A DNA stretch of 63,629 nucleotides, filler included, from Collodictyon triciliatum (taxonomy: Eukaryota), in NCBI GenBank assembly GCA_043381765.1. It is 17 parts of 17 records of this genome, joined end to end, with 100 filler letters (N's around TTAATTAATTAA, not from the genome) between each part and the next. Parts side by side here need not be neighbours in the genome. Positions count along the whole stretch, not along the records: positions 18,923 to 22,767 come from JBHJMP010006799.1; 16 more parts are not named here. One strand, written 5' to 3'. Made by a program: the position numbers and the translations under genes. Of the stretch, positions 11,309-62,295 are shown piece after piece. Positions within the stretch are counted from its first letter, which is position 1. Every line of letters begins with the position of its first letter. Under the pieces are notes generated by a model. That model was not told the DNA's origin and searched no databases. It saw only the letters and a list, made by a program, of their open reading frames with translations.

Positions 11309-11374
11309 CTGAGTGGAGTGGTATTAATTCACCGCGCACAAGATTACAAGCTATCAAAAATCATTTTTCACGTC

Positions 11375-11727
11375 AATAATACCAATAATACCAATAATAC
11401 CAATAATACCAATAATACCAATAATAAATACCAATAATACCAATAATACCAATAATACCAATAATACCAATAATACCAATAATACCAATAATACCAATAA
11501 TACCAATAACAATAATAATAACAATAATAATAACAATAATAATAACAATAATAATAACAATAATAATAACAATAATAATAATAATAACAATAATAATAAT
11601 AACAATAATAATAATAACAATAATAATAACAATAATAATAACAATAATAATAACAATAATAATAACAATAATAATAACAATAATAATAACAATAATAATA
11701 ACAATAATAATAACAATAATAATAATA
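11375..11727. repeat. Compound (AATAATACC)n / (AATAATAAC)n microsatellite
   Basis: Read directly; the contig ends in it. Confidence 0.95.
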
Positions 11728-16489: not shown

Positions 16490-18639
16490 TCACTGCTTAT
16501 CAAAAGCTTCGTATGTGGTACGGGAGTACCATCGGAATTGAAGAAATATCTGTGACAAGGTTGTTTTCATCAGTAGTCAAGTGTAAACATTTAGAGGTCT
16601 ATTACATAACCTTACATGATAAATAAATAATAAATAATAAATAAATAATAAATAAATAATAAATAAATAATAAATAAATAATAAATAATAAATAAATAAA
16701 TAATAAATAAATAATAAATTTGGATGCGGTCACAGAGGCAGGATACAATAAAGTCTAGGAATAAAGTTCCGGTGCTGTGTAACAAGTCTTCATCAGTATG
16801 TTATATCTCGACACGAAAAAGTATCAACGTGTCGCTTTTTTTTTTGTATACTACACAATATGACAAGATGTTTACCTCCCAAACAACCAAGGTATTTGTT
16901 TGATGACATAATCTTCATTAAGATCCCTCAGTAGTATCGACGCAGAGTATGTGACATTTCCGGCAATACAAAACATAAACATGTTTAGAGACAGCCCCTA
17001 TAATGATTTCATGTGACGATCGTCTCTCTTGTTGCTTTTTCAAGTACGAAAATCGATGGATATTATTTTACCTCGGTTGATTTCAGTATATGCTAAGGAT
17101 TTTATTAAGCCATTTTAGGGAATTTTAGAAGATAATGCACAAAAAAAATTTTCTTTTTCGATAATGTAAAGTACGCAGTTAACTCGGGATTTTGTAGTGA
17201 TTAATGAAGAAATTACATTCCTATATATTTGTGGGAGTCTCGCCGCTGTATAAAAGAACGCAGATATATAACCAATAATAATTCCTATATCTTCAACATC
17301 GTCATCATTTGAGCCGCCGCTGGAGAGTAGAGAGCGTAGCTATATATTATCAAAAGTATTCGGATTTAGAGGGATCTTTGGCTCTATGCTTTTTTATAAC
17401 CCGAGCAAATAATTTGAAATTTAATTATCTGAAGTGAGTTAAATTATAAAAAAAGAAAGAAGAAAATGATGAAAAAAAAAAAGGATGGGTATATATATAT
17501 AGAGAGAAAGTAATCGTATAATTTACCAGGAAGGAGTTCTCTTCTGAATATTTCTCCAAATCGCTAGGACGGTCATGCAGAAATAGATAACTGCTGTTGC
17601 ACCAAACTAGAAACGAAAACATTACGATAGGAATGTAATTAATACTATCTTTTGTCCCGATCTGGATTTCCTCTCCGCTTTCTTCCTCTAAATAATCCTG
17701 ATAAATCCTTTTGGAATTCTTCCAACGATAGTAATATACTTGGAGCAAAAGCGCAGATGTCGTGATAGTATACCAAATGGCGATGAAAAGCTATATATAT
17801 CAAATGTTACCTTCAATCAGTATAGCTGAAAATAGATAATAAATTTTGTAGTTAAAATATACCTGAGTGGGGAGGACATCTGTCAGAAGGCAGCCGACAA
17901 GATTCGTGACATCCCCAAATTCCCACATATATAGAAACGGTATACTGATCGATTCTCCTGACTGGTTCCTGTAGTTGTCTCGAATCTGTCTGTTCAGTTG
18001 AAATGATCCATAACTTAAACTTAGTATAACTTGCCTTGGTGTTGGCGATAAATAATTTTATGTAAGTATTCATTTAAAAATCTAACAGAGTGGGCCCCCT
18101 TTTGAAGATTAAGTGGGGTTACAGCTTCAATTTGCTGCAAGTTTTATTCATGACAATAGATTTGATGGAAAAATAATATCATATCGAACATCAGTGAGTA
18201 AGGCGTATCAATTCTTTGATAATCATTTTCTTACGGCCATCCCACAACGACCCAAAAGATTAAAGATATAAGTCCGACTATGAAGCTTGTTATGTCTCTG
18301 GAATTGTAGACCTAGGAATGTAGTTTTGTAAATGCTCGGTCAAAGAATTGATGATAAAACAAAAATTTGGACACATTTTAATTTTTGATAGTTTAAATTA
18401 TGTCGCATTAATTTAATGGTTAAGCTTCAGGCGTGAATGAAAAACATCGAAGATATGGGCAGTAAATAGAAATACCAGTTTGATAACACAAGTAATAAAA
18501 TGAGTTGGTGGCGGTTTCCATAATTTCAAAACAAAAAGAACACTGCAACATATTTTTTTTCGAAAGCAAGGCCACATATACTCACACAGTCACCGAAGGC
18601 GTTGTACATCCACTCAATGTTTCCGTTATCGCACCCCAT
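16490..18639 (-). CDS. PQLC2: PQ-loop lysosomal/vacuolar cationic amino acid transporter (PQLC2/LAAT1/Ypq-like), multi-exon
   Basis: MGCDNGNIEWMYNAFGDC; first PQ loop GWPQIRDNYKNQSGESISIPFL..GDVTNLVGC; second loop ARLPQIYRN..GLSLNMFMFCIAGNVTY; IPWLFGSTGTLFLDFIIFLQFRWY. Confidence 0.85.
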
Positions 18640-18822: not shown

Positions 18823-19825
18823 NNNNNNNNNNNNNNNNNNNNNNNNNNNNNNNNNNNNNNNNNNNNTTAATTAATTAANNNNNNNNNNNNNNNNNNNNNN
18901 NNNNNNNNNNNNNNNNNNNNNNCATTTAATTTATTTTTATTTTTAAATCACAACTTGTCATAATTAAATCGGGTTACTGAAAAGATTTATCATCTTTTCC
19001 ATTTTTGGTGATGTAGAAAAAGAAAAATGAAATTTTGATTATATACTTGTCAAACTCACGTAGCATATTTTTAACCCAAAGATTAAAATCCAATTTTTAA
19101 ATACTATTAAATTTTAGATAGATTTACTGGTGCAAATTAGTGTATTTTTCAGTTCTTTATTTGACATAAATTTCAACCTAGAGTTGAACTATAGAATCTA
19201 TTTATTTTAACTAAAATTATGGACATGATATATACTGAAAATGAGGATTAAAAAAGACAAAACAAAAATTTATCAGCATTATTAAAAATTGAAATAAAAT
19301 ATGAATTTATTATCTCGAATATCAACACAATTTTCTAATAAGTTTTATGATACTTATGTGCAAAATTATAAAATCTATCGAAATTTACATCTTAAAAAAG
19401 TTGTAAAAAGAGAAATATTCTTACAAACCACACTTCACAATTATCATTTATAAAATATTTTGGTCAAATGGTATTATACCATGCAACTAAATTATGTTTG
19501 TAAAATTGTGCCTTGGCTTTTTTTCTAAAATCTCATATATCATATCACATCATGCTATATGAATTTTTCTGTAACACTTAGAAAATAGTGATAAAACTTT
19601 GAATTATAATTGAATTTCTGTTCAAAATTAGTCGATCAAAAATTCAAAATAACGGAAATCCAATTATAAATCAATGATAATCAAATAGAAGTCACAATAT
19701 TCGAATAAATTTAGAAAACAGAAGGCCGAAAATTACAAGAAAATATTGGATGAATTAAGAGAGTTGAAATATGCTGATTATTGAAGAATCTGATGAATTA
19801 TAATACGTCAATAGGCTCTATACCA

Positions 19826-22767
19826 ATGAGGAAAAGTCCAAAACTTCAGCAAATAATACTGGGTAAGCCCTTCTTATTTCTGAATCATTCTCTTTTCTTT
19901 TTATAATATATTCGTCTATTAGTTGCCACCATACTTGTATATATTTCATCGAGCTATGCACAAGTTTCTTCGATTTACACAACCGGAACGGGTCATACAA
20001 GTACTGTTCACAGTGTCGCTGTTACTCCTGATGGTTCAAAAATTGTTTCTGGAAGTACTGATAAAGCAATAAAAATTTGGGATAATTCTAATAGAACAAC
20101 GATTTGTACATTGAACGGTCATGCTGGTAGTGTTTACAGTGTTGCTGTTACTCCCGATGGTTCAAAAATTGTTTCAGGAAGTTATGATAGTACAATCAAA
20201 ATCTGGAATCTTTCTGATGGAACTTTGATTCGCACATTGACTGGTCATACTGAGTATCTTAACAGTGTTGCAATTTCTCCTGATGGCTCAAAAATTGTTT
20301 CTGGAAGTGGCGATAATACAATCAAAATTTGGAATCTTTCTGATGGAGCCTTGATTCGCACATTAACCGGTCATACCCGAAATGTTCGCAGTGTTGCTGT
20401 TACTCCCGATGGTTCAAAAATTGTTTCAGGAAGTTGGGATAACAAGATTAAAATTTGGAATCTTTCAGATGGAGCTTTGATTCGCACATTGACCGGTCAT
20501 AATTCTTATGTTCAAAGTGTTACTGTCACTCCTGATGGATCAAAAATTGTGTCTGGAAGCGAGGATTATACAATAAAAATTTGGAATCTTTCTGATGGAG
20601 CTTTGATTCGCAACTTGACTGGTCATACTAATTCTGTTCGTAGTGTCACTATCACTCCTGATGGTTCAAGAATTGTCTCTGGAAGTGAAGATAGAACAAT
20701 AAAAATTTGGAATCTTTCTGATGGAGCTTTGATTCGCACATTGACTGGCCATACTTCCACAGTTTGTGGAATTAATTTAACTCCTGATGGCTCAAACATT
20801 GTTTCTGGGAGCCAAGACCGAACTGTAAGACTTTGGAATTTTCATGATGGAAGTACTGTTTACACAAGAGGTTCCAAAGTTACAAGTATCATTTCTTCTC
20901 AGTCTAAGTCAACTTTTATTTCAGGGCACTCAGATAATATTATAAGAATTTGGAATCTGTCAAATGGCAATTTAATCAGGTCATTTATTGGACATACAGA
21001 TGAAGTTAACGCACTGACTTTAACAGCAGATGGCTCCACAATAATCTCTGGATGTTCAGATAAAACCATCCAGTTATGGAATGTTGATGATGGGTCTTTG
21101 ATTCAATCATTTGAAATACATTCTGAATCAGTTAACTCAGTTTCTTTAACTGCAGACGGAACAAAAATTATATCTGGAAGTAGCGATAAAACAATCAAAA
21201 TTACAAACATATCTGATGGAACATTAATTAGAGCGTTAATCGGACACACGGGAATAGTAACAAGTCTTGCTTTAACTCCAGACAGCTCAAAAATTGTTTC
21301 TGGAAGTGCTGACAAAACCATCAAAGTTTGGAATTTTTTTGACGGAACATTAGTTCAAGAAATAAAAGTTCACTCTGATGCGGTAAATTCTGTTGCTATA
21401 ACATCAGATGGAACAAAAATTGTTTCTGCAAGCAGCGATAAAACAATCAAAATAACAAGCATTTTAGATGGAACTCTAATTCGCACACTCAATGGACACA
21501 CAGGAATCGTTAAGACAGCTATTATTTCTCCAGATGGCTCTAAAATTATTTCTGGAGGCAGTGATAATACAATAAGAATATGGAATTTTTCAACTGGAGT
21601 CACAATAAATATAATGAACGAGCACATTCTTGGAATTAACGGAATATCAATTGTTTCTGATGGCAAGAAATTTTTGTCAGGAAGCGATGATACAACAATC
21701 AAATTGTGGAGCTTTCCTGATTTCAGCTTGATTCTGACCGTTTCAGGCCACACAAGTTCAGTTAATAGCGTTTCTTTGAGCCCAGATAAAACAAAAATTG
21801 TATCAGGAAGTAGTGACAAAACAATAAGAATTTGGAATTATGCTGATGGTTCTCAAGCACTTTCGATAAATGCCCATACAAGTGCTGTAAATAGTGTTGT
21901 TGTTTCGGCTGATGGAACAAAAATAGTCTCAGGAAGCAGCGACCAGACAATTAAAATGTGGAATTTCTCGGATGGTTTATTGTTGAGAACATTTAGCGGA
22001 CATACTTCAGCTGTTCGAAGCGTAGCAATAACAACAGATAGTTCCGTTATAGTATCAGGAAGCGATGATACAAATATAAATATTTGGAGAGTTTCAGATG
22101 GAATTTTAACTCGTACCTTATTAGGTCATTCTAAAAGTGTGAATTCTGTTTTCATCATTCCAGATAATAGCAAAATAATATCAGGCAGTTCTGATTTTTC
22201 AATAAAAGTATGGAATCTATCAGATGGAGCATTAATAGGAACCATAATTGGTCACGGAAATGCTGTCAGGTGTGTTATTACTTCTCCAGATGGAGCACGA
22301 ATTATCTCTGGAAGCAGCGATAACACAATCAAAATTTGGAACATATCAGATGGCATGTTAATTCGAACAATGACAGGACACTCAAGCTCAGTAAATAGCA
22401 TTTCAATATCACCGGATGGCACAAAATTGTATTCTGGAAGCAGCGATAAATCGGTCAAAATATGGACAATATCAGACGGAAGAGAAATTCGAACACTTCT
22501 GAGTCACACCGATTCCGTTAATATTGTTTTCGCTACTACTGATTCAAAAATAATTTCAGCAAGCACTGATAGATTTATCAAAGTCTGGAGTCCATGCCAA
22601 GGAGGATACTTTTTCAACCAGCAATCAAACACATGCGAAAAATGTCTGTCTGGCTCTTACAATAACGGAAACGAGCTCACCTCTTGTTTATTATGTCCAA
22701 CTGGAACTTATAATCCATCAACTGGTTCCACAAGCCTTAGAGACTGTCTTCTGTGTGAGGAAGGAAC
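19826..22767 (+). CDS. Signal-peptide WD40 protein: 21 WD repeats plus Cys-rich CxxC-GTYNP repeats, 3' partial
   Basis: ATG at 19826; GT-AG intron 19863-19922 gives MRKSPKLQQIILVATILVYISSSYA-QVSS. Then 21 GH...W[N/D/S/T/R] repeats from 19991, and CQGGYF..CEKCLSGSYN..CLLCPTGTYNPSTGS from 22595. Confidence 0.9.
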
Positions 22768-22943
22768 NNNNNNNNNNNNNNNNNNNNNNNNNNNNNNNNN
22801 NNNNNNNNNNNTTAATTAATTAANNNNNNNNNNNNNNNNNNNNNNNNNNNNNNNNNNNNNNNNNNNNTCTTTTTTCTCTTTTTTCTCTTTTTTCTCTTTT
22901 TTCTCTTTTTTCTCTTTTTTTTTCTTTTTTTTTTTCTTTTTCA

Positions 22944-22976
<33 letters not shown>

Positions 22977-23195
22977 CTCTTTTTTCTCTTTTTTCTCTTT
23001 TTTCACTTTTTTTCTTTTTTTTCTCTTTTTCTCTTTTTCTCTTTTTCTCTTTTTCTCTTTTTCTCTTTTTTCCCTTTTTTCTCTTTTTCTTTCTTTTTTC
23101 TCTTTTTTCCCTTTTTCTTTCTTTTCTTTTTCTTTTTCTTTTTCTTTTTCTTTTTCTTTTTCTTTTTCTTTTTGACAAATCTTATATTCATTCAG

Positions 23196-25376
23196 CAAAC
23201 CGCAGAGCAACAAATCGAAAGACCACTCCAAGGGAGATATGACTTTGCTTGGGAGGTTTATCGCACTCGCTTTGGAAATGCAAAGTTTGTGATGGCACCC
23301 ATGGTTTGTCTTCTACTATGTACCCTTTTTTCCACAAGTGTTCGAATATATTTCTAATCTACTATTTTTCTGTGATTGTCTTTATATTTAAATCCATATT
23401 TCTCATAATCCAAAATAAATTATCGCAGGTCGACCAATCAGAGTTAGCGTTTCGTATTCTTGTGCGCGGTTATACACCGGACGTATTGTGCTACACGCCC
23501 ATGCTGCATAGGTAAGTTAGTATTACAAAGTGAAATTTGTCATCTCTTCACCATCCTGCACAAAATTGAAAGGAAGAAAAAAAATATGGCAAATGGTTTA
23601 ATTGATAAATCTTAACTTAGCTATCACTTTTCGACCAACGAAAAGTATCGACAAGAGCATTTCACCACAACACCAGATGACCACCCCTTGATTGCTCAGG
23701 TATCAAAAATAAATCAATGTGTTGTATTCTTTGTGAAACCTTGCATATAGGTGATGTAATTTTAGTTAGTTGTGAAAGTTTCACAAAATATAATGAAGAA
23801 ATCCCCCGCTCTGTAGTTTTGTGCAAATGACCCTGATACATTGGTCAGCGCATCCAAGTTTCTAGAGAGTAAAGTTGATGCCATTGATTTGAATCTTGGA
23901 TGCCCTCAAGGAATTGCTAGACGCGGTCATTATGGCGCATTTCTGATGGAAGAGCCTGACCTTGTCTACAACATAGGTTTTTTTCTTTCTTTTTTATTGT
24001 TTTCATACGTCTTTAAAAATCTTCGATATGGAATATACTTCCCTTTTTTTTCTTGTTGTTGATATTGAGATTTTTAATCTTCCTTTCAATTTTGCGCAGG
24101 ATGGTGCTGTTGTTGAGATATATAATCAGTAAATTTTCCTTTTAGTGTCCAACCTAGTGAAGCATTCCTCTGTTCCTGTTACATGCAAGTGTAGAATTTT
24201 TGATGATTGGGAGAAAACCAAGAAGTGGGTCCAAATGCTCGAAAGTACAGGAATTGTGGTATGATTCACTTCGTAATTTTCTGTGAAAAAAAAAAGCAGC
24301 AATTAAAATCGGCCCTCTATTAGGTGACTTAATGTCTGGTTTTGTATTAGTGTCTTGCAGTTCATGGGCGTACGCGCGACCAAAAGCCAAACACAAAGTA
24401 CAGAGCGGACTGGGGCACTATCAAAAGAGTCAGGTACTGTTGCAATCAAATATCATGTTCTATATGTAAATACATCCACTCTATAACCCAAACACCTACA
24501 GAGAACTACTGAGAATTCCTGTCATTGCAAATGGCAATATTCGGCATCTTAAGGATATTGAAGACTGCATGGAATTCACTGGTGCGGTTGGGGTTATGTC
24601 TGCGGGTATTAATACGAGCGAATTATTTTTGGATTCCTATCCTTTGAATCGAATAAAGGGAAAAAAATTTTGGATTCCTATCGATCGACTCTACATTAAA
24701 TTCGTAATTCGTAATGATAAACTGATTAATTGATTCAGAAGAGGATTGATTGGTGTGGATTATTGAATATCCATCTTATTGAAATATATTTTAATACTAG
24801 AAACCTTGCTGGAAAACCCTGCCCTCTTCACTGGGCGAGATATTCATCCGTGCGAAATGTCTCTCGAATATCTCCGAATCTGCCAGAAGCATCCGACACC
24901 TGTGCGAATGATACGTTCCCATATATTTCAGATGCTTCATCCGAGGTGATTCTACATTCAAAAAAATTGTGCATTTCTGTGAATAGGATGATGGTATGCT
25001 ATAGTCCCAAATGAAATTGACTCACTTTTGAGACCCACACATAACCCACACCAGGCTATCAGTCCATACGGATTTGAGAGAGAAGCTTCAGGATGCACAA
25101 AATGTGCAGGACCACATCGATGTTGTCACCGAACTATACGACAGAGATTTGGTTTGGAAATTTTCACAACAAGCATGATAACTGTATGAATTACTTTTTC
25201 TGTAGAGGATATAAGCTATCGCTTTTATTTCATGGAATGAATGAGAGGAAAAAACATTCATCCAGAAAGGAATTTCCCCACCTCAACCGCCCCCGAAGAA
25301 CGAATCACCAAGTGCACCCACCGACTCTGCATCACAAGAGGACATTTCTCTGGAAGGATTCGATATCTTCGCATAA
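23196..25376 (+). CDS. DUS1: tRNA-dihydrouridine(16/17) synthase, multi-exon, 5' partial
   Basis: [95 protein letters not shown]. Confidence 0.95.
23547..23584 (+). mobile_element. LINE tail family A copy in a DUS1 intron
   Basis: CCATCCTGCACAAAATTGAAAGGAAG-A8. Confidence 0.75.
24071..24115 (-). mobile_element. LINE tail family A copy in a DUS1 intron
   Basis: TCTTCCTTTCAATTTTGCGCAGGATGG. Confidence 0.7.
24642..24667 (+). mobile_element. Retroposon tail family B, 26-bp copy with 15-bp TSD in a DUS1 intron
   Basis: CTTTGAATCGAATAAAGGG-A7 between two TTTTGGATTCCTATC (24627-24641, 24668-24682). Confidence 0.85.
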
Positions 25377-35159: not shown

Positions 35160-38100
35160 TCATGTGATATGGTGGAGGTTCACTTGAACTTTGGTGCGCC
35201 GGCCTTTTAACAGATATACTGCTAATCCGGCCAACGCGCCCGCAACAATCACACTTGCCACCGCGATACCAGCAACTGTCGCTGGCGATAGTTCTTTTTC
35301 TCTGCTAGACTTTTTATATTCTGTTTGAATTTTCGTGAAAAATGGAGCTTCCCCTGCGTCATTTGCTGCTTTGATTTCATATCCGTATGTAACATCACTT
35401 CTGCACGATTAAATATACGCCAGTCGAGGTTAAGTTTATTTGTATGAAAATATGAAAAGCGGAGAAATGTTTTTACTCAAAAAAAAAATCATAGTAATGA
35501 AACCCTTACTTTACGCTAGAATCAAGATACTCCGTTGAGAGTACGACCAAGTCTCCAGTGTCAAATCGAGGAGACCGCCGAACGATGTAGTAAAGAGGGC
35601 CAGCATTTCCTTGGGGAATGTCCATGGAATTATACAGATATTGGGTTCGGTTAAGGGGGGAGATCATTTGTTTATTCTTCCTTTCAATTTTTTGCAGGAC
35701 GGTGGGGATGTTGGCTTTGGTTCGCTAGCCAAAGGTTAAGGGGGGGGGGGGAAGATATGTATTCCTTTAAATGTTTACAAGATTGGGATTTATGTAGCGG
35801 CTTTCGTAAATATAACATCTCATGTGATAGTGAATTTTGGCATGAATTGCTTTATACCTCTGTTGAAGGGCTCATTCCAAGATACTTTAACCTCAGTTCC
35901 TGATAACCTTTCAATCCTTGGAGGGAGAACGATATGACCAGGCAAAGCTACGACCGAATTAAATTGGGCTATTAATGACTAATTAGCATAACATGAAAGA
36001 CATATCTCTGCCCTATTCTGTGGTGGATGTAAATTACGTTTTTGTTTACTATGATTGCAAAACCTAAGGATAAGCTCTGGACATATGGTATGCATACTTA
36101 CGAGATTCATCCCAATCTGGGTAATACAAGTCGTAATAGCATCGCATTCTAGCATGCTTTTTCATATAATAACCATTATACCCGATAAAGGAGAGCAGAG
36201 CAGAGGAAAAGAAAAGAAGAGAAAAGAAAAACTGGAAAGGAAAGGAAAGGAAAAGAGAAAAAAGAGAAAAAAGAAAAAAAGAGAAAAGAAGGCAAAGGCA
36301 AATTCATCTGTGTCATGACTTGATGGCGTATGGAGGCATAATTACTTGTTGAAGAGAAAACTCTTGTTTAAAGCAAATTCCTTCTGGCTGTGAGTATCCC
36401 ATGATATTTTCTACTGGGGTGTTAACCCATGGTTCGCTCACACAATCAGAGCACGATATATCTGACACCTATTTCCCAATGAGACAAAATGACATTTATA
36501 ATTCATAATACCAAAATTCAAAATACACAAGCATTCTATACTAGGAGATTTTAGAACATCCAACGATGTAAAATTCAATCACATTACCCCTCTGGGACAT
36601 GGTTCAGGATCACTGCAGAAAAAATTCATGGGAGTTGGTCTCGTATCAGCACATAGGTCACCCTTAAGCATGGTACCTTCTGCGCCATCAGGGTATTGAG
36701 GCTCAGAACAAGGATCATCGCACCCTTAAATAATATTTCTTTTTAGCTTAATTCGTCTAAAAACTTATTAGTTTGATAAGTTGTTTTACTTTATGTATGG
36801 GTATCAGTAGAAAATAAAATAAAAATAAGTGCATATCTGGATACCACCTTCAGATAGCTCACTAACTCCCCGGAATGTATGCCATAAACCAAACGAATGT
36901 CCAGCCTTAAATACGCCATAATTTATGAAGGAATTTTTACTTTTTCCAATTGGTTATTGCCGGTATGATATTTAGTGCATGTATCAAACCTCATGTGGGG
37001 CAGTTGTACCGTGATACACTGAATCAGGCCCATCCCCCCATACCGATTTTTCCAAGAGAAAACCTCCTGAGAAAGAACTATCGAAGTCGATTGTCCATGG
37101 AAAAACAGAAATTCCCAACAGATATGAATCTATATTATTTGGGTTACATGAATTTTGTTGTAGTCGTGTGTGTCATGTTTGATTGTTTTAGTAATAGTAA
37201 AAAAAAAAAAAAAAAGCTAGGAAACATATCTTACTTTCCATACCACCAACATAGATGTAAAGATGAGTGGAAAAGTTAGAACTCGCGTATTGTCGGATTT
37301 CAATGATATCAGCGAAACCTATAATGGCATTGGGCCGTGTATGTAAGTAAAGAATTTTTGTGCAAATTTAATCATATGCCCTAAAATGAAGTTGTACTTC
37401 TTTGAAAAAGAGGACGCTTGCTATCAAAACATTTTCCCAGGGAAGGATCCTCGCAGCAGTCACCACCGTCAAAATTTTTGGGAGCCACATTGCAGACATC
37501 CTGGCAAATCCCATCCCCTATCATAGACTTTATTGGACATAAGTATACATAGGATGACTGACGTTAAGAGATGATACAAAACACTTCATTTTGCTCATTT
37601 AAGACCACGAATGTTAAAAATGGATAATTGCTGGTAGTATGTACAATTAGATACTTATTCACGACATAGATTAACTTTACTTGTTCACAAGTGCTATAAT
37701 CATAGCAGATGCAATAACAATCATCGATTCCTTCCATGGTATATACTATATTTTCATAAGTGCACAGAGGGTTGCATGATTCGGGATTTGGGCAGAGCCA
37801 ATCCCCGCCATCAAATCCATTATGCAAAGTAAGACATTCTATGTTGGGTATTCCTACATAACAAGATGGCAGTTTTTATAATAGATCAAACTAATTTACA
37901 ACAGTCCTCACATCTACTGATAATATCATATCGTTTTGTGATTTGAAAGAAACCATCTCCTAAGTTTTCGATCCTACAGTCATATGGTGTTATTTCCCCA
38001 TACCACAAATAAGTGGAATTTATCACAACATCTTCAAAAACAAAATCTATGGATGATCCTTCAAAATATGAATTCAAGACTTCTTTTTGGAATTCGGTCT

Positions 38101-39131: not shown

Positions 39132-40264
39132 TCACGCTGGGCAGAATTCGGTTACACTCTTCGAATGTCCATTAACCCAAAACATAGGAGTATCGTAGCT
39201 ATATTTCGATGGCTTCTCAAACATTGTGGAGGTGATATGTTCATCACACATAGCTTGTTTCTTATCATACTGGAAGTTAACTATAGAGGGCCTACGTCCA
39301 GTAGGTGTAAAAACCAGGTGTTCATCATTAATTTTGGCCCAAGGACAGGTCTTGTAACAAGATGTGTCAACGGTCAGTATAGCCATGAAAAAATCCACGC
39401 AGTAGTCTAACTCAAATCCTTTCATTCCACTTAAATAAGCTTCGTGAAAATATCTTTGAACGCTCAGTACTTTGTGCTCATTAATTTCCACTTCTTTACA
39501 AGCTTCAGCTAGGAACTCCTTGAGCTTTCCAGCGTACGCGAGGTATATCCCAGAATAAATGTAACGGGGTCTAATATATGAATATTATAGTCAACGCCAA
39601 ACGTGAATATTCTACTATTATTGACTATAAGCAAACCCGTTCTTGAAGCAAGTGTTGTACGATCCAACCTGGTCGTATGCTCTAACGCAACCATTAGTGG
39701 TTTCCTGGATGGAGGTATTATAATTCTTTCTCATGTCATCTGGCCAGCAATTGTACTCGACAGACATCATCATGTCCACTTTTTTGTCCTTGAATTTCCT
39801 GACTATATCATTGAAATCTTCATTCAGCACAACATCCATAGAGTCACAAAAAATGATGATTGTTCCATTTTCATAACTTTTTATCTCGTCTCTCACGTCA
39901 ACAGTTTGTCTGCATTGCGGTTCCAACGGGTTCCATAACCTATTATATGTAACAATGCTCCATAGCAGTTCGACGATTTTGCAATGTCACAAACTCTGTG
40001 CTTATCAGAATTCCACACTAAAATCACTACTGCATTGTGTAACCTTAGAGCATTCAAATATTTTTTTGACGGTTGTTCATGAATACTTTTAGTGGATCTC
40101 TCACTGACGACATGTCGCACAGATGGCAATAGAAAATCCCTGTGCTTTACAGCTACCCGACCCCTCCTGGCATGCGCAGGCGTCAAATTTGCCTCATCCA
40201 AATACACGAATATTCCAATTGCAAGTATGAGTCCTAGAATTAAAATAACTAATCCCTTTGTCAT
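39132..40264 (-). pseudogene. PLOD-type (procollagen galactosyl/glucosyltransferase-like) type II membrane glycosyltransferase, frameshifted
   Basis: N-terminal anchor, IIIFCDSMDV, MMMSVEYNCWPD, RYIYSGIYLAYA, LDYCVDFF, WVNGHSK. One intron near 39562-39636 and a 1-nt frameshift near 39897 (KLLT* versus DVRDEIK). Confidence 0.65.
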
Positions 40265-41689: not shown

Positions 41690-43572
41690 CCTATAGAATA
41701 AATTTGGCATTGAAGCCCCCACCATAATGTCAGAGATGTAATATAAATTCTGATTGCACATCTCAAGGCTCTGCGTAGGTGTCAGATAACCTGCACTATT
41801 GCATCGCGAATATTACGGATTCCAATGAGATGAAGTAATTCTATTCGTGAGAAAAAATCGGCATCAAAATAGTCCTGTCAAGTTACCTTTGAAATGAAAT
41901 TTACTGTGGAAAATAAGTCAGGCGGGCGTCTCTCCTGGTTGATGTGGAGTGTGGGAGCAGGGTATGGACATGTTGCCTGAACATCTCGCGACTCAACACC
42001 ACCTCATACTTACATCGCGGTCAGAGCAGCGGACATTGTTCATATGTTTGTCATTATATTTTTAAATCCTTAGTTATTGAGCCCGTCTCAACAATCTTTC
42101 ATTCAACCATCAGGCAAGCAGTTCCAAAGTAGGTGATGTAAGGGAGATAGAAAAAGAAAAACAGGGATAAAGGGAAAAAAAAAAGGGAAAAGAGAGGTCC
42201 TTGAGGCTTGATAAGAGACGCATGGATTTCTTTTGGGGACGCATGATAGTGTCCCACGAGCATGAGAAAAAGGGACGGATGATATTGATTGGATGGAGGA
42301 GGGGGAATACTGCTTTGATGGCAAAAGGTGTCGAAAAAGATGGTGAAAAAAGAAGTGGGGTTCGTTTGATAAGCACCAGGTCGAGTGCAAAGAGGACTTC
42401 TCTGCATGGTTGACTCACCTCCTTCCAGACCGTATTAGGGTCTTTTCAGTAGGGGTTGTCGAAGGGATTTCTCCCTCTTGCTTGTAAAANNNNNNNNNNN
42501 NNNNNNNNNNNNNNNNNNNNNNNNNNNNNNNNNTTAATTAATTAANNNNNNNNNNNNNNNNNNNNNNNNNNNNNNNNNNNNNNNNNNNNCCTTTATAAAG
42601 AGAACATGATTGAACAACCAATGTATCAATTATTTCTTTACTTTATCAATTTTATATACGAAATATGTGAAAAATTTAACCAAATGATTGACATGTGTTT
42701 TCCTTGATGACATGTTTTATTCATAATTGTGATAAACATTTAATTACTGATATACATAACATATAACTGTCTTATAATATTTCATTCTTTTTAAATCGTG
42801 CAAATTGTTTGAATAATAATTAATTCCATATTTTTACTTATAAGTGTGATATATTTTGATTTAAAAGTGCATATAATTGATTGAAAAAGTCTGTTGTGAA
42901 ATCATCAGCTATTGTGTTATCACAATTGATTTATCACTTAGACAAAACAAACCTATTCTTCTCAAACTGATCCATTTATTATCCTATCATTTAAACTTAA
43001 ACTTGATTTTTTGATTTATTATTATGTCCCAATTATAATGAGGCTACTTAGCATGAGTCCCATACTTTAATATTGTTTTCCGTATGTCGTATGTTGATTG
43101 ATTTGTTTTGATGGCATGTTTCATCCAATAATTGATTAGTGATTTTCCTTTAAGTATCAAATCAAAATCTACTTATAACTGGTACAATAAATGACCTTGC
43201 TGAAAATATTACCGAAGACTAATGAATTTTTATCATTTAATTTTTGAGTTGAAATCGATTTAACCTGATATGATGACTATGTTTTGCATTTTTAATATAT
43301 ATGAATTAACTGATGAAGTCACTATACCATCAAATAAAATTGTCATATTTATCAATGGATATGAATAAGAGTATTCGTATTTTGAGAGATTTTATTACAT
43401 GAGTATTATTGAAGTTATATGAAGATAATCTATCTATGTATTTTTGAATGAATCAATGATAATTGAGTAGAATGATTCAATATTAGATGTTAAATAAAAT
43501 GGGTTGATTCGATATTACACCATTTCATAAAATTTTGTATAAATCTTTAAACACTCATCACATTAGTTTAGA

Positions 43573-46432
43573 ATGAGATTGAATTCAAGGTCGTTTGCAG
43601 CTCTGTTGCTGTTGGGTGAGTTTTAAATTATTTGTTTAATTTTATTGACTTCAAATTACAGATTTTAATTGATATATTTTTAGGATTGATGCTCCACTGC
43701 CAATTGTGTCCTGTTGAAGGGCAAGATGATTCGATACGCACATTGACTGGTCATACTAATAGCATTACCAGTGTTGCTGTTACTCCTGATGGCTCAAAAA
43801 TCATTTCTGGGAGTGATGATAATACAGTCAAAATTTGGAATCTTTCTGATGGAGCTTTGATTCGCACGTTGACTGGTCATACTGATTNNNNNNNNNNNNN
43901 NNNNNNNNNNNNNNNNNNNNNNNNNNNNNNNNNNNNNNNNNNNNNNNNNNNNNNNNNNNNNNNNNNNNNNNNNNNNNNNNNNNNNNNNNNNNNNNNNNNN
44001 NNNNNNNNNNNNNNNNNNNNNNNNNNNNNNNNNNNNNNNNNNNNNNNNNNNNNNNNNNNNNNNNNNNNNNNNNNNNNNNNNNNNNNNNNNNNNNNNNNNN
44101 NNNNNNNNNNNNNNNNNNNNNNNNNNNNNNNNNNNNNNNNNNNNNNNNNNNNNNNNNNNNNNNNNNNNNNNNNNNNNNNNNNNNNNNNNNNNNNNNNNNN
44201 NNNNNNNNNNNNNNNNNNNNNNNNNNNNNNNNNNNNNNNNNNNNNNNNNNNNNNNNNNNNNNNNNNNNNNNNNNNNNNNNNNNNNNNNNNNNNNNNNNNN
44301 NAAATTGTTTCTGGAAGTGATGATAATACAATCAAAATCTGGAATCTTTCTGATGGAGCTTTGATTCGCACATTGACTGGTCATACTCATTCGGTTCTCA
44401 GTGTTGCTGTTAATCCTGATGGGTCAAAAATCGTTTCTGGAAGTGATCATAATACAATCAAAATCTGGAATCTTTCAGATGGTGCTTTGATACGCACATT
44501 GACTGGTCATACTGATTCGGTTTACAGTGTTGCTGTCACCCCTGATGGTTCTAAAATTGTTTCAGGAAGTTTCGATAATACAATCAAAATCTGGAACCTT
44601 TCTGATGGAGCTTTGATTCGCACATTGACTGGTCATACTCATTCGGTTCTCAGTGTTGCTGTTACTCCTGATGGCTCAAAAATTGTTTCTGGTGGTGGTT
44701 ATGAAGGTGGAACAATCAAAATCTGGAATCTTTCTGACGGAGCTTTGATTCGCACATTGACTGGTCATACTGATTCGGTTTACAGTGTTGCTGTTACTCC
44801 TGATGGCTCAAAAATTGTTTCCGGTGGAAGCTATGATTATACAATCAAAATTTGGAATGTTCCTGAATTACAATGCATTCTTGGTCAGTTTTATGATTTA
44901 GAATCAAAATCTTGTCAGCCATGCCCATCTGGAAGCTACAGTTTTGGAGGGACTTCATCTTGCATTATGTGCCCTACTGGTACATACAATCCATCAACTG
45001 GCCAGTCTGCCTGCCTTTCATGTGCAACTGGTACATACAACCCATCAAATGGTTCCTCTAGTGTTGATTCCTGTCTTTCATGCGCAGCTGGCACATACAA
45101 TCCATCTACGGGTTCCTCTAGTGTTGGTGCTTGTCTTTCATGTGCAGCTGGCACATACAATCCATTTATTGGTCAATTAACCTGTTTTTCATGTGCAGCT
45201 GGCACATACAATCCATTTATTGGTCAATCTGCTTGTCTTTCATGTGCAGCTGGCACATACAATCCATTTATTGGTCAATCTGCTTGTCTTTCATGTGCAG
45301 CTGGCACATACAACCCATCAACTGGTTCCTCTAGTGTTGATTCCTGTCTTTCATGCGCAGCTGGTACATACAATCCATCTACGGGTTCCTCTAGTGTTGA
45401 TGCTTGCCTATCATGTGCCATTGGCACATACAATCCATTTATTGGTCAATTAACCTGTCTTTCATGCGCAGCTGGCACATACAATCCATCTACGGGTTCC
45501 TCTAGTGTTGATGCTTGCCTATCATGTGCCATTGGCACATACAATCCATTTATTGGTCAATCTGCTTGTCTTTCATGTGCAGCTGGCACATACAACCCAT
45601 CAACTGGTTCCTCTAGTGTTGGTGCTTGTCTTTCATGCGCAGCTGGTACATACAATCCATTTATTGGTCAATCTGCTTGTCTTTCATGTGCAGCTGGCAC
45701 ATACAACCCATCAACTGGTTCCTCTAGTGTTGGTGCTTGCCTTTCATGTGCAGCTGGCACATACAATCCATTTATTGGTCAATCTGCTTGTCTTTTATGT
45801 GCAGCTGGTACATTTAACCCGTCAATTGGCTCTGTAAGTATTAATGCTTGTCTTTCATGTACAGCTGGTACGTATAATCCATATAGTGGTCAGTTTTCTT
45901 GTCTTTCCTGTACGACTGGCACATACAACCCATCAAATGGTTCCTCTAGTATTAGTTCTTGTATTTCATGTGCACCTGGAACCTATAGCTCATCAACTGG
46001 CCAAATAGCTTGTACTTCCTGTCCGAGTGGAACATATAATCCATTCACTGGCTCTTCAAATCCTAGCTCCTGTATAGCTTGTGATGCTGGCACTTATAAC
46101 CCTATAAATGGTTCTACTTCTATTGAAAATTGCCTGCCATGTGGACCAGGGACGTTCAATTACAAAAAAGGACAGGCTTTATGTGATCCATGTGAGCCAG
46201 GAACTTACACCAGCGATGAAGGAAGGAAGAACTGCCTAGATTGTCCACCTGGACAATACAACAGCAAATACGGTCAATCTGAATGCAGTATGTGTCCTTT
46301 TGGAACATATAATCCTATTAGAAAGAGCACTAACTCGTCGTCCTGTATTCAATGCGAAGTAGGTACATACAATAGTGTCGATGGAAAATCAACTTGTTTT
46401 GATTGTCCTGCGGGATTTTATATGGATGAGAG
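43573..46432 (+). CDS. Signal-peptide WD40 protein with a long Cys-rich repeat stalk (paralog of 19826), internal gap, 3' partial
   Basis: ATG at 43573; intron 43616-43683 gives MRLNSRSFAALLLLGLMLHCQLCPVEG-QDD. Near-identical WD repeats to about 44860, then at least 27 CxxC-xxGTYNP units (GCC2_GCC3/ephrin-receptor-like). Confidence 0.9.
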
Positions 46433-61436: not shown

Positions 61437-62065
61437 TGTATATTCTCGTTGCGGTTGTTGCTATGGAGTTGTTTGCTTGGTGCTGGAGTCCTGGTGGAGG
61501 GCTGGATCTATACAAAGATCGTCACATGATCAGCACACAAGTCTGCAGTTTCTTCTTTTTTACTGTTTTTTTTTCTTTCTGTGTGTTTGAATTTTGATGG
61601 CGTGATTTATCAAAGGGATCGATGTGTCTGCAGCGATTGGTCAGCACACATGCACAGTGAATCTATTGCACATAAGGCGCGATACCGAACAACATACAAG
61701 CATTTTAGCTGCGCGATGGGATAATAATATGAAAGTATTAATGTCTGAGCATTATGTAAATTTTTTGCTGGGCTTTATGGCTTTCTTAGTCAAAAATATA
61801 CAAATACTATATTTTCCATAAATAAAAAACAAATAAGTCATGAAGAAACAAGCCAATCACACTCCATGTTTGGGCATTTTGCAAAGCATCTTACGGGTTG
61901 TCTGTTTGATCGCGCTCTATGGTGCTCTTCACTTTTTTTGCTTGGTGCCTCTTTCCTTCTCCCAATCTCCCTTTTGTTCCTTTACATATGTATTAAAATA
62001 GTTGTTAGAGACAACCGGTGGCAGATATATTTTATTTTTATTTTTATTATTATTATTATTATTAT

Positions 62066-62142
<77 letters not shown>

Positions 62143-62295
62143 TTACTATTACTATTACTACTACTACTACTACTATTACTATTACTACTACGACTNNNNN
62201 NNNNNNNNNNNNNNNNNNNNNNNNNNNNNNNNNNNNNNNTTAATTAATTAANNNNNNNNNNNNNNNNNNNNNNNNNNNNNNNNNNNNNNNNNNNN

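What the first reader, a model, noticed from the sequence alone, without database searches (positions are those of the whole stretch)
19826..22767. Secreted WD40 protein with one homogenised, surface-hypervariable propeller: candidate diversifying receptor
Seen: a short upstream exon missed by the ORF track adds a signal-peptide-like leader. It is followed by exactly 21 WD repeats (3 x 7) and a Cys-rich stalk. The first 7 repeats are in exact 126-bp register (19991, 20117, 20243, 20369, 20495, 20621, 20747), and the central five are nearly identical in DNA. They vary mainly at GH-[TST/AGS/TEY/TRN/NSY/TNS/TST]-[V/L]-[H/Y/N/R/Q/R/C] and SGS-[T/Y/G/W/E/E/Q]-D-[K/S/N/N/Y/R/R]. The other 14 repeats are diverged with mostly Ser at those sites. 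Known: this pattern of high internal conservation with variable top-face residues is that of the intracellular fungal HNWD (HET-E/D/R) NLRs, and WD40 domains are typically intracellular. Inference: an extracellular ligand-recognition protein (prey, pathogen or self/non-self) whose outermost propeller is diversified by repeat shuffling.
Basis: partly seen in the sequence, partly recalled or inferred. Interest (0 to 1): 0.88.

Follow-up and report, generated by a model that had tools for sequence, protein, structure and literature searches.

The report
Surface protein with WD40 propeller head
An AT-rich eukaryote encodes at least two related proteins that seem to carry ordinary WD40 propellers, normally found inside cells, out to the cell surface on a cysteine-rich stalk, with the likely binding face of the outermost propeller differing from blade to blade.

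Summary
The observation largely holds. An ATG at 19826 and a 60-nt GT..AG intron join in frame to a 949-codon open frame that has no ATG of its own for 570 codons. The spliced N-terminus looks like a signal peptide. It is followed by 21 WD40 repeats (three 7-blade groups) and an Ephrin_rec_like cysteine-rich repeat, cut by a contig end.

A second gene on another contig (43573-46432) has the same leader, the same intron phase and a WD40 head, plus 13 Ephrin_rec_like stretches. This is therefore a family, not an assembly artefact.

In propeller 1, six codons hold 70% of the non-synonymous differences. They include the three canonical top-face hotspots and correspond by motif to the four codons under positive selection in fungal HET genes.

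The blades are not "nearly identical in DNA". They are 79-86% identical, with framework pS 0.30. Blades are no more alike within a gene than between the two genes, so recent homogenisation or shuffling is not shown.

Related stalk proteins carry other propellers (RCC1, Kelch, FG-GAP) at the N-terminus. Exported all-WD40 proteins appear to exist in bacteria.

Verdict: a new variant of known kinds. No RNA evidence was available, the C-terminus is missing and the organism is unidentified.

The parts
19826..19862 (+). Gene 1, exon 1: start codon, 12 codons and 1 base (phase 1). It encodes the charged n-region and the start of the hydrophobic core of the leader.
   Evidence: An alternative in-frame ATG lies at 19793, and an in-frame stop at 19775.
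19863..19922 (+). Gene 1 intron: 60 nt, GT..AG, inferred.
   Evidence: Splicing restores the frame, and unspliced read-through stops after 26 codons. There is no RNA evidence (one search listed no run).
19923..19960 (+). Rest of the predicted signal peptide. The proposed cleavage is before the Gln codon at 19961.
   Evidence: hydrophobic window 3.40; -3/-1 site Ser-x-Ala. This is a rule of thumb, not SignalP.
19991..20872 (+). Propeller 1: WD units 1-7 in exact 126-nt register. Units 2-6 have a near-consensus scaffold and six variable codons per unit (3, 4, 5, 7, 23, 25).
   Evidence: AlphaFold2 model with pLDDT 90.7. Foldseek matches 2ymu and 7bie.
20873..21745 (+). Propeller 2: unit 8 (39 codons, degenerate) and units 9-14.
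   Evidence: In the full-length model, pLDDT breaks at model residues 297-305 and dips at about 560-600. The 7+7+7 grouping is inferred from these dips; coordinates were not inspected.
21746..22612 (+). Propeller 3: units 15-21. Unit 21 is one residue short.
22604..22747 (+). First Ephrin_rec_like cysteine-rich repeat of the stalk. A second repeat begins and is cut at 22767 by the contig end.
   Evidence: PF07699, residues 8-55 of the 22583-22765 translation. There are 7 Cys in the last 60 residues against 4 in the 888 WD residues.
22768..22867 (.). Spacer between unrelated contigs (44 N, TTAATTAATTAA, 44 N). It is not part of the genome, and the gene's 3' end is missing.
43573..43615 (+). Gene 2 (paralogue on another contig), exon 1: start codon, 14 codons and 1 base (phase 1).
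   Evidence: An in-frame stop lies 3 codons upstream (read).
43616..43683 (+). Gene 2 intron: 68 nt, GT..AG, inferred. It has the same phase as in gene 1 and the same place inside the hydrophobic core.
43684..44879 (+). Gene 2: rest of the leader and the WD40 head. Units start at 43749, 44379, 44505, 44631 and 44763, plus partial units on either side of a 414-N gap (43888-44301). The last two units carry 2-residue insertions in the b-c turn.
44880..46432 (+). Gene 2 stalk: 13 Ephrin_rec_like stretches, cut by the contig end.
   Evidence: (PF07699, E 2.7e-95).

Best explanation
Genes 1 and 2 belong to a gene family of secretory-pathway proteins, most likely type-I cell-surface proteins. A signal peptide, whose coding sequence is split by a phase-1 intron, directs the protein into the ER. 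The mature protein starts about 10 residues before the first WD40 blade.

The head is one or more canonical 7-blade WD40 propellers of the 'highly repetitive' type: three propellers in gene 1, and an uncertain number of blades in gene 2 because of the gap. A stalk of Ephrin_rec_like disulfide-rich repeats holds the head away from the membrane.

In gene 1 the membrane-distal propeller keeps an almost invariant scaffold. Each blade presents different, mostly large or charged residues at the top-face hotspot positions, so the seven blades together form one asymmetric binding surface for an extracellular ligand. Propellers 2 and 3 have uniform small or polar residues at the same positions and act as spacers or low-specificity modules. 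Family members differ in top-face residues and in head size, which would give them different specificities.

Shown: the domain order, the open frames, the leader features, the fold prediction, where the variation lies, and purifying selection on the scaffold.
Inferred: splicing, secretion, the membrane anchor, binding, and any ligand.
For: GENE MODEL.
- The frame cannot start inside exon 2 (first Met at codon 570) and is closed upstream by a TAA at 19904.
- The GT..AG intron joins it in frame to an ATG exon.
- An independent paralogue has a leader exon and an intron of the same phase at the same place.

LEADER.
- Both leaders have a basic n-region, a hydrophobic core (Kyte-Doolittle 3.40 and 2.90 over 9 residues) and -3/-1 sites.

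EXTRACELLULAR CONTEXT.
- PF07699 follows in the same frame in both genes.
- In 5 of 5 stalk homologues scanned, a propeller (Kelch, RCC1 or FG-GAP) lies N-terminal to the stalk.
- Of the 12 homologues examined for hydrophobic segments, 4 (P0269, P0354, P0266, P0270) have both an N-terminal hydrophobic leader and a single span 21-86 residues from the C-terminus. P0247, which lacks its N-terminus, has the C-terminal span only. One (P0321) has a span followed by 658 cytoplasmic residues. Three have only an N-terminal hydrophobic segment (P0253, P0295) or none (P0309). Three (P0239, P0240, P0242) have several spans.

FOLD.
- Propeller 1 model: pLDDT 90.7, pTM 0.83.
- Best Foldseek matches: 2ymu (43% identity) and the 7-blade WRAP-T 7bie (48% identity, TM 0.98, rmsd 0.9).

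VARIATION.
- 86.8 of 124.8 non-synonymous differences among units 2-6 fall in 6 of 42 codons. In units 9-20 the same six codons hold 22%.
- Scaffold: pN 0.047, pS 0.30, dN/dS 0.13. Variable codons: pN 0.60.
- dN(variable)/dS(scaffold) is 3.2, bootstrap 1.7-7.6.
- Codons 5, 7 and 23 are R1-2, R1 and D-1 by the motif rule of PMC3419727.

NOT AN ASSEMBLY CHIMAERA.
- Two contigs carry different WD-to-stalk junctions in continuous frames.
Against: - No RNA evidence for either intron was available.
- No signal-peptide predictor was run; only rules of thumb were used.
- Both genes are cut by contig ends, so no membrane anchor, GPI signal or cytoplasmic domain has been seen.
- N-glycosylation sequons are not enriched: 14 observed against 14.6 +/- 3.1 in shuffles.
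- The WD blades have no blade-stabilising disulfides, unlike the CRINKLY4 ectodomain propeller. The WD part has 4 Cys in 888 residues.
- At the variable codons themselves, dN/dS is about 1.1 and saturated, so positive selection rests on the comparison with scaffold dS.
- The Cys-rich tail was not modelled (pLDDT about 25).
- No protein with this architecture was found elsewhere, so there is no comparative support for it as a conserved design.
Confidence: 0.6

Rival explanations
1. This would be a diversifying recognition receptor whose outer propeller is kept homogeneous and diversified by ongoing exchange or shuffling of repeat units, as in fungal HET-E/D/R, with positive selection on the top face driving polymorphism between individuals or cells.
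For: - By the shared motif (a variable residue on each side of the conserved Val and of the conserved Asp), our codons 5, 7, 23 and 25 correspond to the two pairs of positively selected codons reported for HET repeats. Those are their codons 7/9 and 25/27, flanking conserved codons 8 and 26 (PMC1805685, passages). This correspondence is my inference from the motif, not a residue-by-residue alignment.
- dN at the variable codons exceeds scaffold dS (3.2, bootstrap 1.7-7.6).
- Blades of propeller 1 are younger or more alike than those of propellers 2 and 3: scaffold pS 0.30 against 0.63 and 0.72.
- Blades of the two genes are as alike as blades within a gene, which family-wide exchange would also give.
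- There is a gap inside the gene 2 array, and contig ends fall in repeats.
Against: - Unit DNA identity is 79-86% and scaffold dS is about 0.38. This is not the near-identity (up to 100%) of HET repeats.
- There is no excess of within-gene over between-gene similarity (0.891 and 0.886 against 0.885).
- Only two family members are visible and no alleles, so no polymorphism has been seen.
- Differences between blades of one propeller are expected for any asymmetric binding site.
- The same pattern is general in highly repetitive WD40 proteins.
Confidence: 0.15
2. A surface coat, adhesion or matrix protein family. The WD40 head and the CxxC-rich stalk would be structural, as in the cysteine-rich surface-coat families of protists. 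Blade differences would then reflect neutral drift at unconstrained loop positions, not ligand specificity.
For: - dN/dS at the variable codons is about 1.1, which is compatible with neutrality.
- Gene 2 varies at only three of the six codons, and its blades alternate between two residue sets.
- The long repetitive stalk has 13 or more Ephrin_rec_like stretches.
- 2 of the 17 contig pieces in one window carry the family, which suggests many copies.
Against: - Variable positions in gene 1 are enriched in Tyr, Trp, Arg, Glu, His and Gln, typical hotspot residues, whereas propellers 2 and 3 carry Ser, Asn or Lys there.
- dN at these codons exceeds the scaffold dS.
Confidence: 0.15
3. The protein is not secreted. 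The leader exon would be a chance ORF or a membrane anchor of another kind, or the loci would be pseudogenes, and the protein (if made) would be cytosolic like most eukaryotic WD40 proteins.
For: - No RNA evidence and no predictor run.
- WD40 proteins of eukaryotes are, from general knowledge, mostly intracellular.
- Sequons are not enriched.
Against: - Two independent leaders share the same intron phase and position.
- There is no internal start codon for 570 codons.
- A disulfide-type extracellular domain lies in the same frame in both genes.
- Scaffold dN/dS of 0.13 over long intact frames argues against pseudogenes.
Confidence: 0.07
4. An assembly artefact or contaminant. This would be a chimaeric contig joining a WD40 gene to a Cys-rich gene, or DNA from another organism.
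For: - The contigs are short (3.8 kb), rich in repeats, and end inside repeats.
- The WD blades are most like bacterial ones.
Against: - Two contigs carry different junction sequences, each in an uninterrupted frame.
- The inferred introns are spliceosomal.
- GC content (0.37; third codon positions 0.24) is like the rest of the window.
- The best prokaryote genome match is only 58-60%.
Confidence: 0.03

Closest known systems
Highly repetitive (HR / 'WRAP') WD40 propellers of cyanobacteria and other bacteria, protists and fungi (PMC5587647 and PMC9218822, passages read; PDB 2ymu, 7bie)
   Same: - Canonical WD40 blades with very similar scaffolds, and diversity concentrated at the predicted hotspot sites.
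- Units 2-6 are 76-81% identical to each other in protein.
- They are up to 67% identical, over 210 residues without gaps, to a cyanobacterial kinase-WD40 protein.
- Model against 7bie: TM 0.98, rmsd 0.9.
- The consensus of 19 homologous WD40 proteins (those with names are cyanobacterial kinases), aligned with four segments of the window's own genes, has its undetermined positions at the same places.
   Different: - Those proteins are fused to kinase, NACHT/NB-ARC, TIR or similar intracellular modules (names).
- Here the propellers follow a eukaryotic signal-peptide-like leader and precede an Ephrin_rec_like stalk.
- 0 of 236 WD40 hits match the stalk.
Fungal HNWD NLRs (HET-E, HET-D, HET-R) (PMC1805685, passages read)
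   Same: - A conserved WD scaffold.
- Variation at positions that correspond, by the shared motif, to the positively selected codon pairs: the residues on each side of the conserved Val and of the conserved Asp.
   Different: - No HET or NACHT domain; only about 10 residues separate the predicted cleavage site from the first blade.
- Predicted extracellular rather than cytosolic.
- Unit DNA identity is 79-86% rather than up to 100%.
- There is no sign of gene-specific or recent concerted evolution.
Protist surface proteins with an N-terminal propeller head on an Ephrin_rec_like stalk. These are unnamed environmental and protist proteins, e.g. Kelch-headed P0253 of Carpediemonas membranifera and RCC1-headed P0269 and P0354.
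   Same: - Domain order: head, then stalk (5 of 5 scanned).
- In the RCC1-headed ones with an intact N-terminus (P0269, P0354, P0266): an N-terminal hydrophobic leader, a single C-terminal span and a short tail.
- Stalk repeats are 30-48% identical to gene 2.
   Different: - The head family differs. 0 of 263 stalk homologues have a WD40 region: 120 plus 143 new representatives, tested.
- The C-terminus of the window's genes is unknown.
Plant CRINKLY4 receptor kinases (bioRxiv 10.1101/2020.08.10.245050, passages read)
   Same: - An ectodomain made of a 7-blade propeller followed by a TNFR-like cysteine-rich domain, with a putative ligand groove on the propeller.
   Different: - The CRINKLY4 propeller has a disulfide in every blade, and its closest structural match reported there is BLIP-II. 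It is not shown there to belong to the sequence family PF00400.
- Its cysteine-rich domain is a single unit of about 90 residues.
- A kinase is present there and unknown here.
Bacterial exported all-WD40 proteins of about 1,545 residues (for example P0089 and P0093 of Gemmataceae; unnamed family)
   Same: - A Sec-type hydrophobic leader followed within about 10 residues by WD40 repeats that run through the protein.
- They cover 87-95% of gene 1.
- By a crude hydrophobicity rule, 42 of 218 WD40 hits that start with Met have such a leader.
   Different: - Only 25-31% identical over the long alignments.
- Bacterial, with no cysteine-rich stalk.
- Export is inferred from sequence only.

Membership tests
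WD40 repeat beta-propeller (Pfam PF00400) | Profile match above the curated threshold, in tandem copies | tested here: met
   E 4.6e-202, 646.5 bits against a cutoff of 27, 20 stretches. 21 units by register.
WD40 repeat beta-propeller (Pfam PF00400) | GH and WD-type motifs, and the Asp-His-Ser/Thr-Trp tetrad residues in each blade | tested here: met
   His 2, Ser 20, Asp 24 and Trp 30 are invariant in units 1-7. The tetrad is as defined in PMC3419727.
WD40 repeat beta-propeller (Pfam PF00400) | A closed propeller of four-stranded blades | tested here: met
   (pLDDT 90.7; 7bie TM 0.98, WDR5 TM 0.81). This is a prediction, not an experiment.
Highly repetitive WD40 (Hu et al. 2017) | Internal repeat identity of at least 0.7 | tested here: inconclusive
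   Units 2-6 have mean identity 0.79 (0.76-0.81). All seven units of propeller 1 have mean 0.66, and units 9-20 have 0.48. The paper's exact way of computing the value was not read.
Highly repetitive WD40 (Hu et al. 2017) | Diversity concentrated at predicted hotspot sites | tested here: met
Fungal HNWD / HET-E-type NLR | N-terminal HET domain and NACHT NTPase before the WD repeats | tested here: not met
   The first blade starts 23 residues into the exon-2 translation. Of 54 Pfam families matched, the 25 best that were shown are all WD40 or propeller families.
Fungal HNWD / HET-E-type NLR | Concerted evolution: repeats nearly identical in DNA within and between loci | tested here: not met
   79-86% DNA identity; scaffold pS 0.30.
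Fungal HNWD / HET-E-type NLR | Positive selection at the paired codons around the conserved Val and Asp | tested here: inconclusive
   The same positions are the variable ones. dN/dS there is about 1.1 and saturated. dN against scaffold dS is 3.2 (1.7-7.6). Only blades of two genes were compared; no alleles.
Propeller-headed Ephrin_rec_like-stalk surface proteins | Ephrin_rec_like (PF07699) repeats C-terminal to a propeller | tested here: met
   compared.
Propeller-headed Ephrin_rec_like-stalk surface proteins | N-terminal signal peptide | tested here: inconclusive
   Rule-of-thumb features are met in both genes. No SignalP run and no RNA evidence for the splice.
Propeller-headed Ephrin_rec_like-stalk surface proteins | C-terminal membrane span and short tail | not testable with these tools
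   Both genes are cut by contig ends, and no genome is held.
CRINKLY4 receptor kinase | A disulfide in every propeller blade; a transmembrane helix and a kinase | tested here: not met
   Only 4 Cys in 888 WD residues. The kinase and the transmembrane helix could not be tested.

The most novel reading that the evidence does not exclude
A eukaryote has built a family of cell-surface recognition receptors on a canonical WD40 propeller head. It would be an extracellular counterpart of the intracellular WD40 sensors of fungal and bacterial NLR-like proteins. The scaffold would be held constant across the family, while the codons that correspond by motif to those under positive selection in HET genes are diversified between blades and between family members to bind different external ligands (prey, microbes or conspecific cells). 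The blade type may ultimately have come from bacteria.
Probability: 0.25. Interest if true: 0.8.

Novelty: new variant of a known kind. Interest (0 to 1): 0.55.

Why it matters
WD40 propellers are among the commonest intracellular scaffolds of eukaryotes. A secreted, stalk-mounted one would widen the known uses of the fold. It would also give an outside-the-cell parallel to the WD40 sensor domains of NLR-like immune proteins.

The finding also shows a modular design in which different propeller families (RCC1, Kelch, FG-GAP and here WD40) are mounted on the same Ephrin_rec_like stalk. The plant CRINKLY4 ectodomain has the same domain order, a propeller followed by a cysteine-rich domain.

Because the scaffold is nearly constant and the contact residues are few and predictable, binding specificities should be easy to test by swapping hotspot residues.

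Tried and rejected
- WHOLE GENOME: none is held for this window. Family size, the C-termini and the organism could not be determined.
- RNA RUNS: none was listed, so the introns are untested.
- EARLIER FINDINGS of this scan: nothing by place, words or sequence.
- RFAM AND tRNA SCANS of the window: nothing.
- ESM ATLAS with gene 2: only WD40 clusters, scores 0.83 or lower, no combined architecture.
- WORD-INDEXED PROTEIN SEARCHES with the whole protein and with the head-stalk junction were swamped by WD40-only proteins.
- STALK SEARCHES found no WD40-headed relative. None of the 120 listed of 667 hits at E <= 1e-10 (lengths 389-1241 only) and none of the 143 new representatives among the best 150 has a WD40 region. 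Lower-ranked hits and other lengths were not examined.
- METAGENOME SCAN: the 80 loci kept matched the WD part. The two I opened among those whose match ran furthest past residue 200 (L040, L075) were WD-only.
- N-GLYCOSYLATION SEQUONS as a mark of secretion: not enriched.
- RECENT TRANSFER FROM BACTERIA: the best prokaryote genome match is 58-60%. The best protein match is 67%. Named cyanobacteria give 42-67% and named fungi 44-54%. This suggests kinship of blade type only.
- CILIATE-TYPE GENETIC CODES: gene 1 uses CAA/CAG for all 12 Gln codons and has no in-frame TAA or TAG.
- LITERATURE: 'secreted WD40' gave 0 papers. 'WD40' + 'ectodomain' + 'GCC2' gave 0. 'Ephrin_rec_like' + 'WD40' gave 1 irrelevant paper. 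'ephrin receptor-like' + 'beta-propeller' + 'protist' listed nothing relevant among the 12 shown. Supplements were not seen.
- A script error (division by zero) was repaired.
Full report
WHAT THE WINDOW IS

The 63,629-base window is not one locus. Sixteen spacers (44 N, TTAATTAATTAA, 44 N) divide it into 17 pieces. Most are about 3.84 kb (range 3,049-3,854 nt), and the last is cut by the window end. The finding lies on the piece 18923-22767, so the sequence from 22868 onward is unrelated and the gene is cut at a contig end. No whole genome is held and no RNA run was listed.

The DNA is 23-42% G+C. Other pieces carry exons of eukaryotic genes: Dus, DIM1, a PQ-loop protein and a PLOD-type glycosyltransferase. 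I could not identify the organism. I treat it as an AT-rich eukaryote with short spliceosomal introns that uses the standard genetic code: there is no in-frame TAA or TAG in 949 codons, and all 12 Gln codons are CAA or CAG.

THE GENE MODEL

The long frame opens after a TAA at 19904, and its first in-frame Met is at codon 570 (21614). It therefore cannot be translated without an upstream exon. The ATG at 19826 is followed by 12 codons and one base, then GT at 19863. An AG ends at 19922, and joining 19862 to 19923 keeps the frame. Unspliced, the exon-1 frame stops after 26 codons. An in-frame ATG at 19793 is a second possible start.

The spliced N-terminus has 3 K/R in the first 8 residues. It has a 9-residue window of Kyte-Doolittle 3.40 at residues 10-18, and a Ser-x-Ala site before Gln 26 (19961). 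These are rules of thumb; no signal-peptide predictor was available.

A SECOND GENE GIVES THE STRONGEST SUPPORT

On the piece 42590-46432 there is a paralogue:
- An ATG at 43573, three codons after an in-frame stop.
- 14 codons and one base, then a 68-nt GT..AG intron (43616-43683) of the same phase 1. As in gene 1, it lies inside the hydrophobic core.
- Near-consensus WD units, interrupted by a 414-N gap.
- A stalk with 13 Ephrin_rec_like stretches (E 2.7e-95), cut by the contig end.

Its leader has 2 K/R in the first 8 residues, a hydrophobic window of 2.90, and -3/-1 sites at residues 20 and 27. Two contigs with different head-to-stalk junctions in continuous frames rule out an assembly chimaera. 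Two of 17 random small pieces carrying the family suggests many copies, although small contigs are enriched in repeats.

DOMAINS OF GENE 1

Pfam WD40 PF00400 matches at E 4.6e-202 with 20 stretches. By register there are 21 units:
- units 1-7 from 19991, in exact 126-nt steps (period 126, no indels);
- a degenerate 39-codon unit 8;
- units 9-20, again in exact 126-nt steps from 20990;
- a slightly short unit 21.

The last 61 residues match Ephrin_rec_like PF07699 (E 1.2e-11, 44.7 bits, cutoff 23.1).

AlphaFold2 on 19961-20989, with an alignment of 23 sequences, gave pLDDT 90.7 and pTM 0.83. Units 1-7 form the propeller, the first 9 residues are disordered, and unit 8 is set apart after a low-confidence linker. 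Foldseek's best matches are the highly repetitive Nostoc propeller 2ymu (43% identity) and the 7-blade WRAP-T designs (7bie: 48% identity, TM 0.98, rmsd 0.9), followed by WDR5, LIS1 and G-beta.

The full-length model (pLDDT 84.4, pTM 0.44) has 83 strands. It has a break at model residues 297-305 and a dip over unit 14, consistent with 7+7+7 blades. The Cys-rich tail was not modelled. I had no access to coordinates, so the grouping and the face assignment rest on strand positions and on the published topology.

WHERE THE BLADES DIFFER

Among units 2-6 (10 pairs), 86.8 of 124.8 non-synonymous differences (70%) fall in six of 42 codons: 3, 4, 5, 7, 23 and 25. In units 9-20 the same six codons hold 22%.

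In the model these codons lie in the loop before strand a, in the second residue of strand a, and in the b-c turn. By the motif rule of Wu et al. (PMC3419727, passages), codon 7 is R1, codon 5 is R1-2 and codon 23 is D-1, the three general top-face hotspots.

In the HET family the strongly selected codons come as two pairs, each flanking a conserved residue (PMC1805685, passages). Our codons 5 and 7 flank the conserved Val, and codons 23 and 25 flank the conserved Asp, so by motif they are the corresponding positions. This is my inference; I did not align the two repeat consensus sequences.

In propeller 1 these positions carry Tyr, Trp, Arg, Glu, His, Gln and Asn. In units 9-20 the residue before the Asp is Ser in 9 of 12, R1 is Asn in 8 of 12, and the residue after the Asp is Lys in 6 of 12.

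IS PROPELLER 1 'HOMOGENISED'?

Only in a relative sense.
- Units 2-6 are 76-81% identical in protein and 79-86% in DNA (89% over the 36 scaffold codons). They are not nearly identical.
- Scaffold codons have pN 0.047 and pS 0.30 (dN/dS 0.13), so the scaffold is kept by purifying selection over appreciable time.
- Scaffold pS is 0.63 and 0.72 in propellers 2 and 3, so the blades of propeller 1 are younger or have been exchanged more recently.
- At the six variable codons pN is 0.60 and pS 0.57, giving a ratio of about 1.1, which is saturated.
- Against scaffold dS, the variable-codon dN gives 3.2 (bootstrap over codons 1.7-7.6; pN above pS in 99.98% of resamples). This fits either positive selection or selection against homogenisation at these sites.
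- The comparison is between blades of one surface, which are expected to differ. It is not a comparison between alleles.
- Scaffold DNA identity is 0.891 within gene 1, 0.886 within gene 2 and 0.885 between them. All three complete gene 2 units are nearest to unit 2 of gene 1. There is therefore no gene-specific concerted evolution. The star-like pattern fits either an old amplification under constraint or family-wide exchange, and the data cannot separate these.

RELATIVES OF THE WD40 PART

- The best hits are bacterial and fungal multi-WD40 proteins with kinase, NACHT/NB-ARC, TIR or no other domain.
- Units 2-6 are up to 67% identical over 210 gap-free residues to a Brasilonema kinase-WD40 protein. 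Named cyanobacteria give 42-67%, fungi 44-54% and other prokaryotes 34-54%.
- The best match in prokaryote species genomes is 58-60%.
- The consensus of an alignment of 19 homologous WD40 proteins (those with names are cyanobacterial kinases) with four segments of the window's own genes has its undetermined positions at the same places as ours.
- Hu et al. describe this as a general property of highly repetitive WD40 proteins of prokaryotes, protists and fungi (PMC5587647, passages). Pereira and Lupas discuss a possible immune role for the bacterial ones (PMC9218822, passages).
- None of the 236 WD40 hits matches the stalk.
- By a crude rule, 42 of the 218 that start with Met have a hydrophobic N-terminal leader. 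These include a group of proteins of about 1,545 residues (two are named Gemmataceae) in which WD repeats start about 10 residues after the leader and run through the protein. Exported canonical WD40 propellers therefore probably exist in bacteria.

RELATIVES OF THE STALK

- The stalk of gene 2 finds 667 proteins at E <= 1e-10 (lengths 389-1241). None of the 120 listed carries PF00400, and identity is 48% or lower.
- Many carry another propeller instead. In 5 of 5 scanned, the head (Kelch, RCC1 or FG-GAP) is N-terminal to the Ephrin_rec_like repeats.
- Twelve were examined for hydrophobic segments. Four (P0269, P0354, P0266, P0270) have an N-terminal hydrophobic leader and a single span 21-86 residues before the C-terminus. 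P0247 lacks its N-terminus and shows only the C-terminal span. One (P0321, with NHL in its Pfam list) has a span followed by 658 residues with kinase and TIR families. Two have only an N-terminal hydrophobic segment, one has none, and three have several spans.
- A full HMMER scan of 1.84 billion representatives with the first stalk repeat of gene 1 gave 4,874 hits. Of the best 150, the 143 that were new, together with the 120 above, contain no WD40 region: 0 of 263.
- The 80 metagenome loci that were kept match the WD part. The two I opened, among those whose match ran furthest past it, were WD-only.
- I found no paper describing the architecture.
- The nearest described analogue by design is the CRINKLY4 ectodomain: a 7-blade propeller with one disulfide per blade followed by a TNFR-like cysteine-rich domain (bioRxiv 10.1101/2020.08.10.245050, passages).

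READING

Most likely (0.6) these are secretory-pathway proteins, probably type-I surface proteins. A WD40 head is held on an Ephrin_rec_like stalk, and the membrane-distal propeller of gene 1 offers one asymmetric top-face binding site.

A structural or coat role (0.15), a non-secreted protein (0.07) and an artefact (0.03) are the other rivals.

What is new is the combination in a eukaryote. It is not the variable-hotspot pattern, not the propeller-on-stalk design, and probably not the export of WD40 propellers as such.

The weakest points are the lack of RNA evidence, the lack of a proper signal-peptide prediction, the missing C-termini, and the fact that only two family members could be compared.

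Noticed in passing
window 1-63629: The window is 17 unrelated contig pieces, mostly about 3.84 kb, joined by 16 spacers of 44 N + TTAATTAATTAA + 44 N. Neighbouring 'context' across a spacer means nothing.
   Followed up: yes
window 20990-22501: In units 9-20 the top-face positions are uniform: Asn at R1 in 8 of 12, Ser before the Asp in 9 of 12, and Lys after it in 6 of 12. A repeated identical site on every blade is what propeller lectins show (recalled, not tested). It could equally be the ancestral state.
   Followed up: partly
P0003, P0007, P0063, P0064, P0068, P0072, P0076, P0079, P0089, P0093: A group of bacterial proteins of about 1,545 residues (two are named Gemmataceae). They have a Sec-type leader followed at once by WD40 repeats along the whole length. 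They look like exported multi-propeller WD40 proteins, and I know of no description of them.
   Followed up: partly
window 44631-44894: The last two WD units of gene 2 carry 2-residue insertions in the b-c turn, a change in top-face loop length. Gene 2's units alternate between two hotspot sets: units at 44379 and 44631 share one set, and units at 44505 and 44763 share the other. Their first 66 nt are 92% and 88% identical.
   Followed up: partly
window 43888-44301: A 414-N gap lies inside the WD array of gene 2. The span from the start of the interrupted unit (43875) to the end of the partial unit after the gap (44378) is 504 nt, exactly four units. If the gap size is real, the head would have 9 units rather than 7.
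   Followed up: no
It would lengthen the n-region of the leader.
   Followed up: partly
window 39621-39986 (-), 61164-61460 (-), 23817-24059 and 24470-24730 (+), 17803-18057 (-): Exons of a PLOD-type glycosyltransferase (E 6e-10), DIM1 (8e-12), a dihydrouridine synthase (3e-14 and 4e-8) and a PQ-loop protein (7e-9) on other pieces. They confirm an intron-rich eukaryote. The PLOD-type domain hints at, but does not show, an animal or a close relative.
   Followed up: partly
window 35163-35408 (-): An open frame ends in a hydrophobic span followed by a short basic tail. It has a sub-threshold match (E 0.007) to the membrane-anchor end of Giardia VSP. It may be the C-terminus of another surface protein.
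   Followed up: no
window 22868-23173 and several other piece ends: Contig ends are microsatellites or low-complexity runs, for example (TCTTTTTTC)n, and Asn- or Thr-coding runs at 11328-11727 and 61749-62195. These probably explain why the assembly broke there.
   Followed up: no
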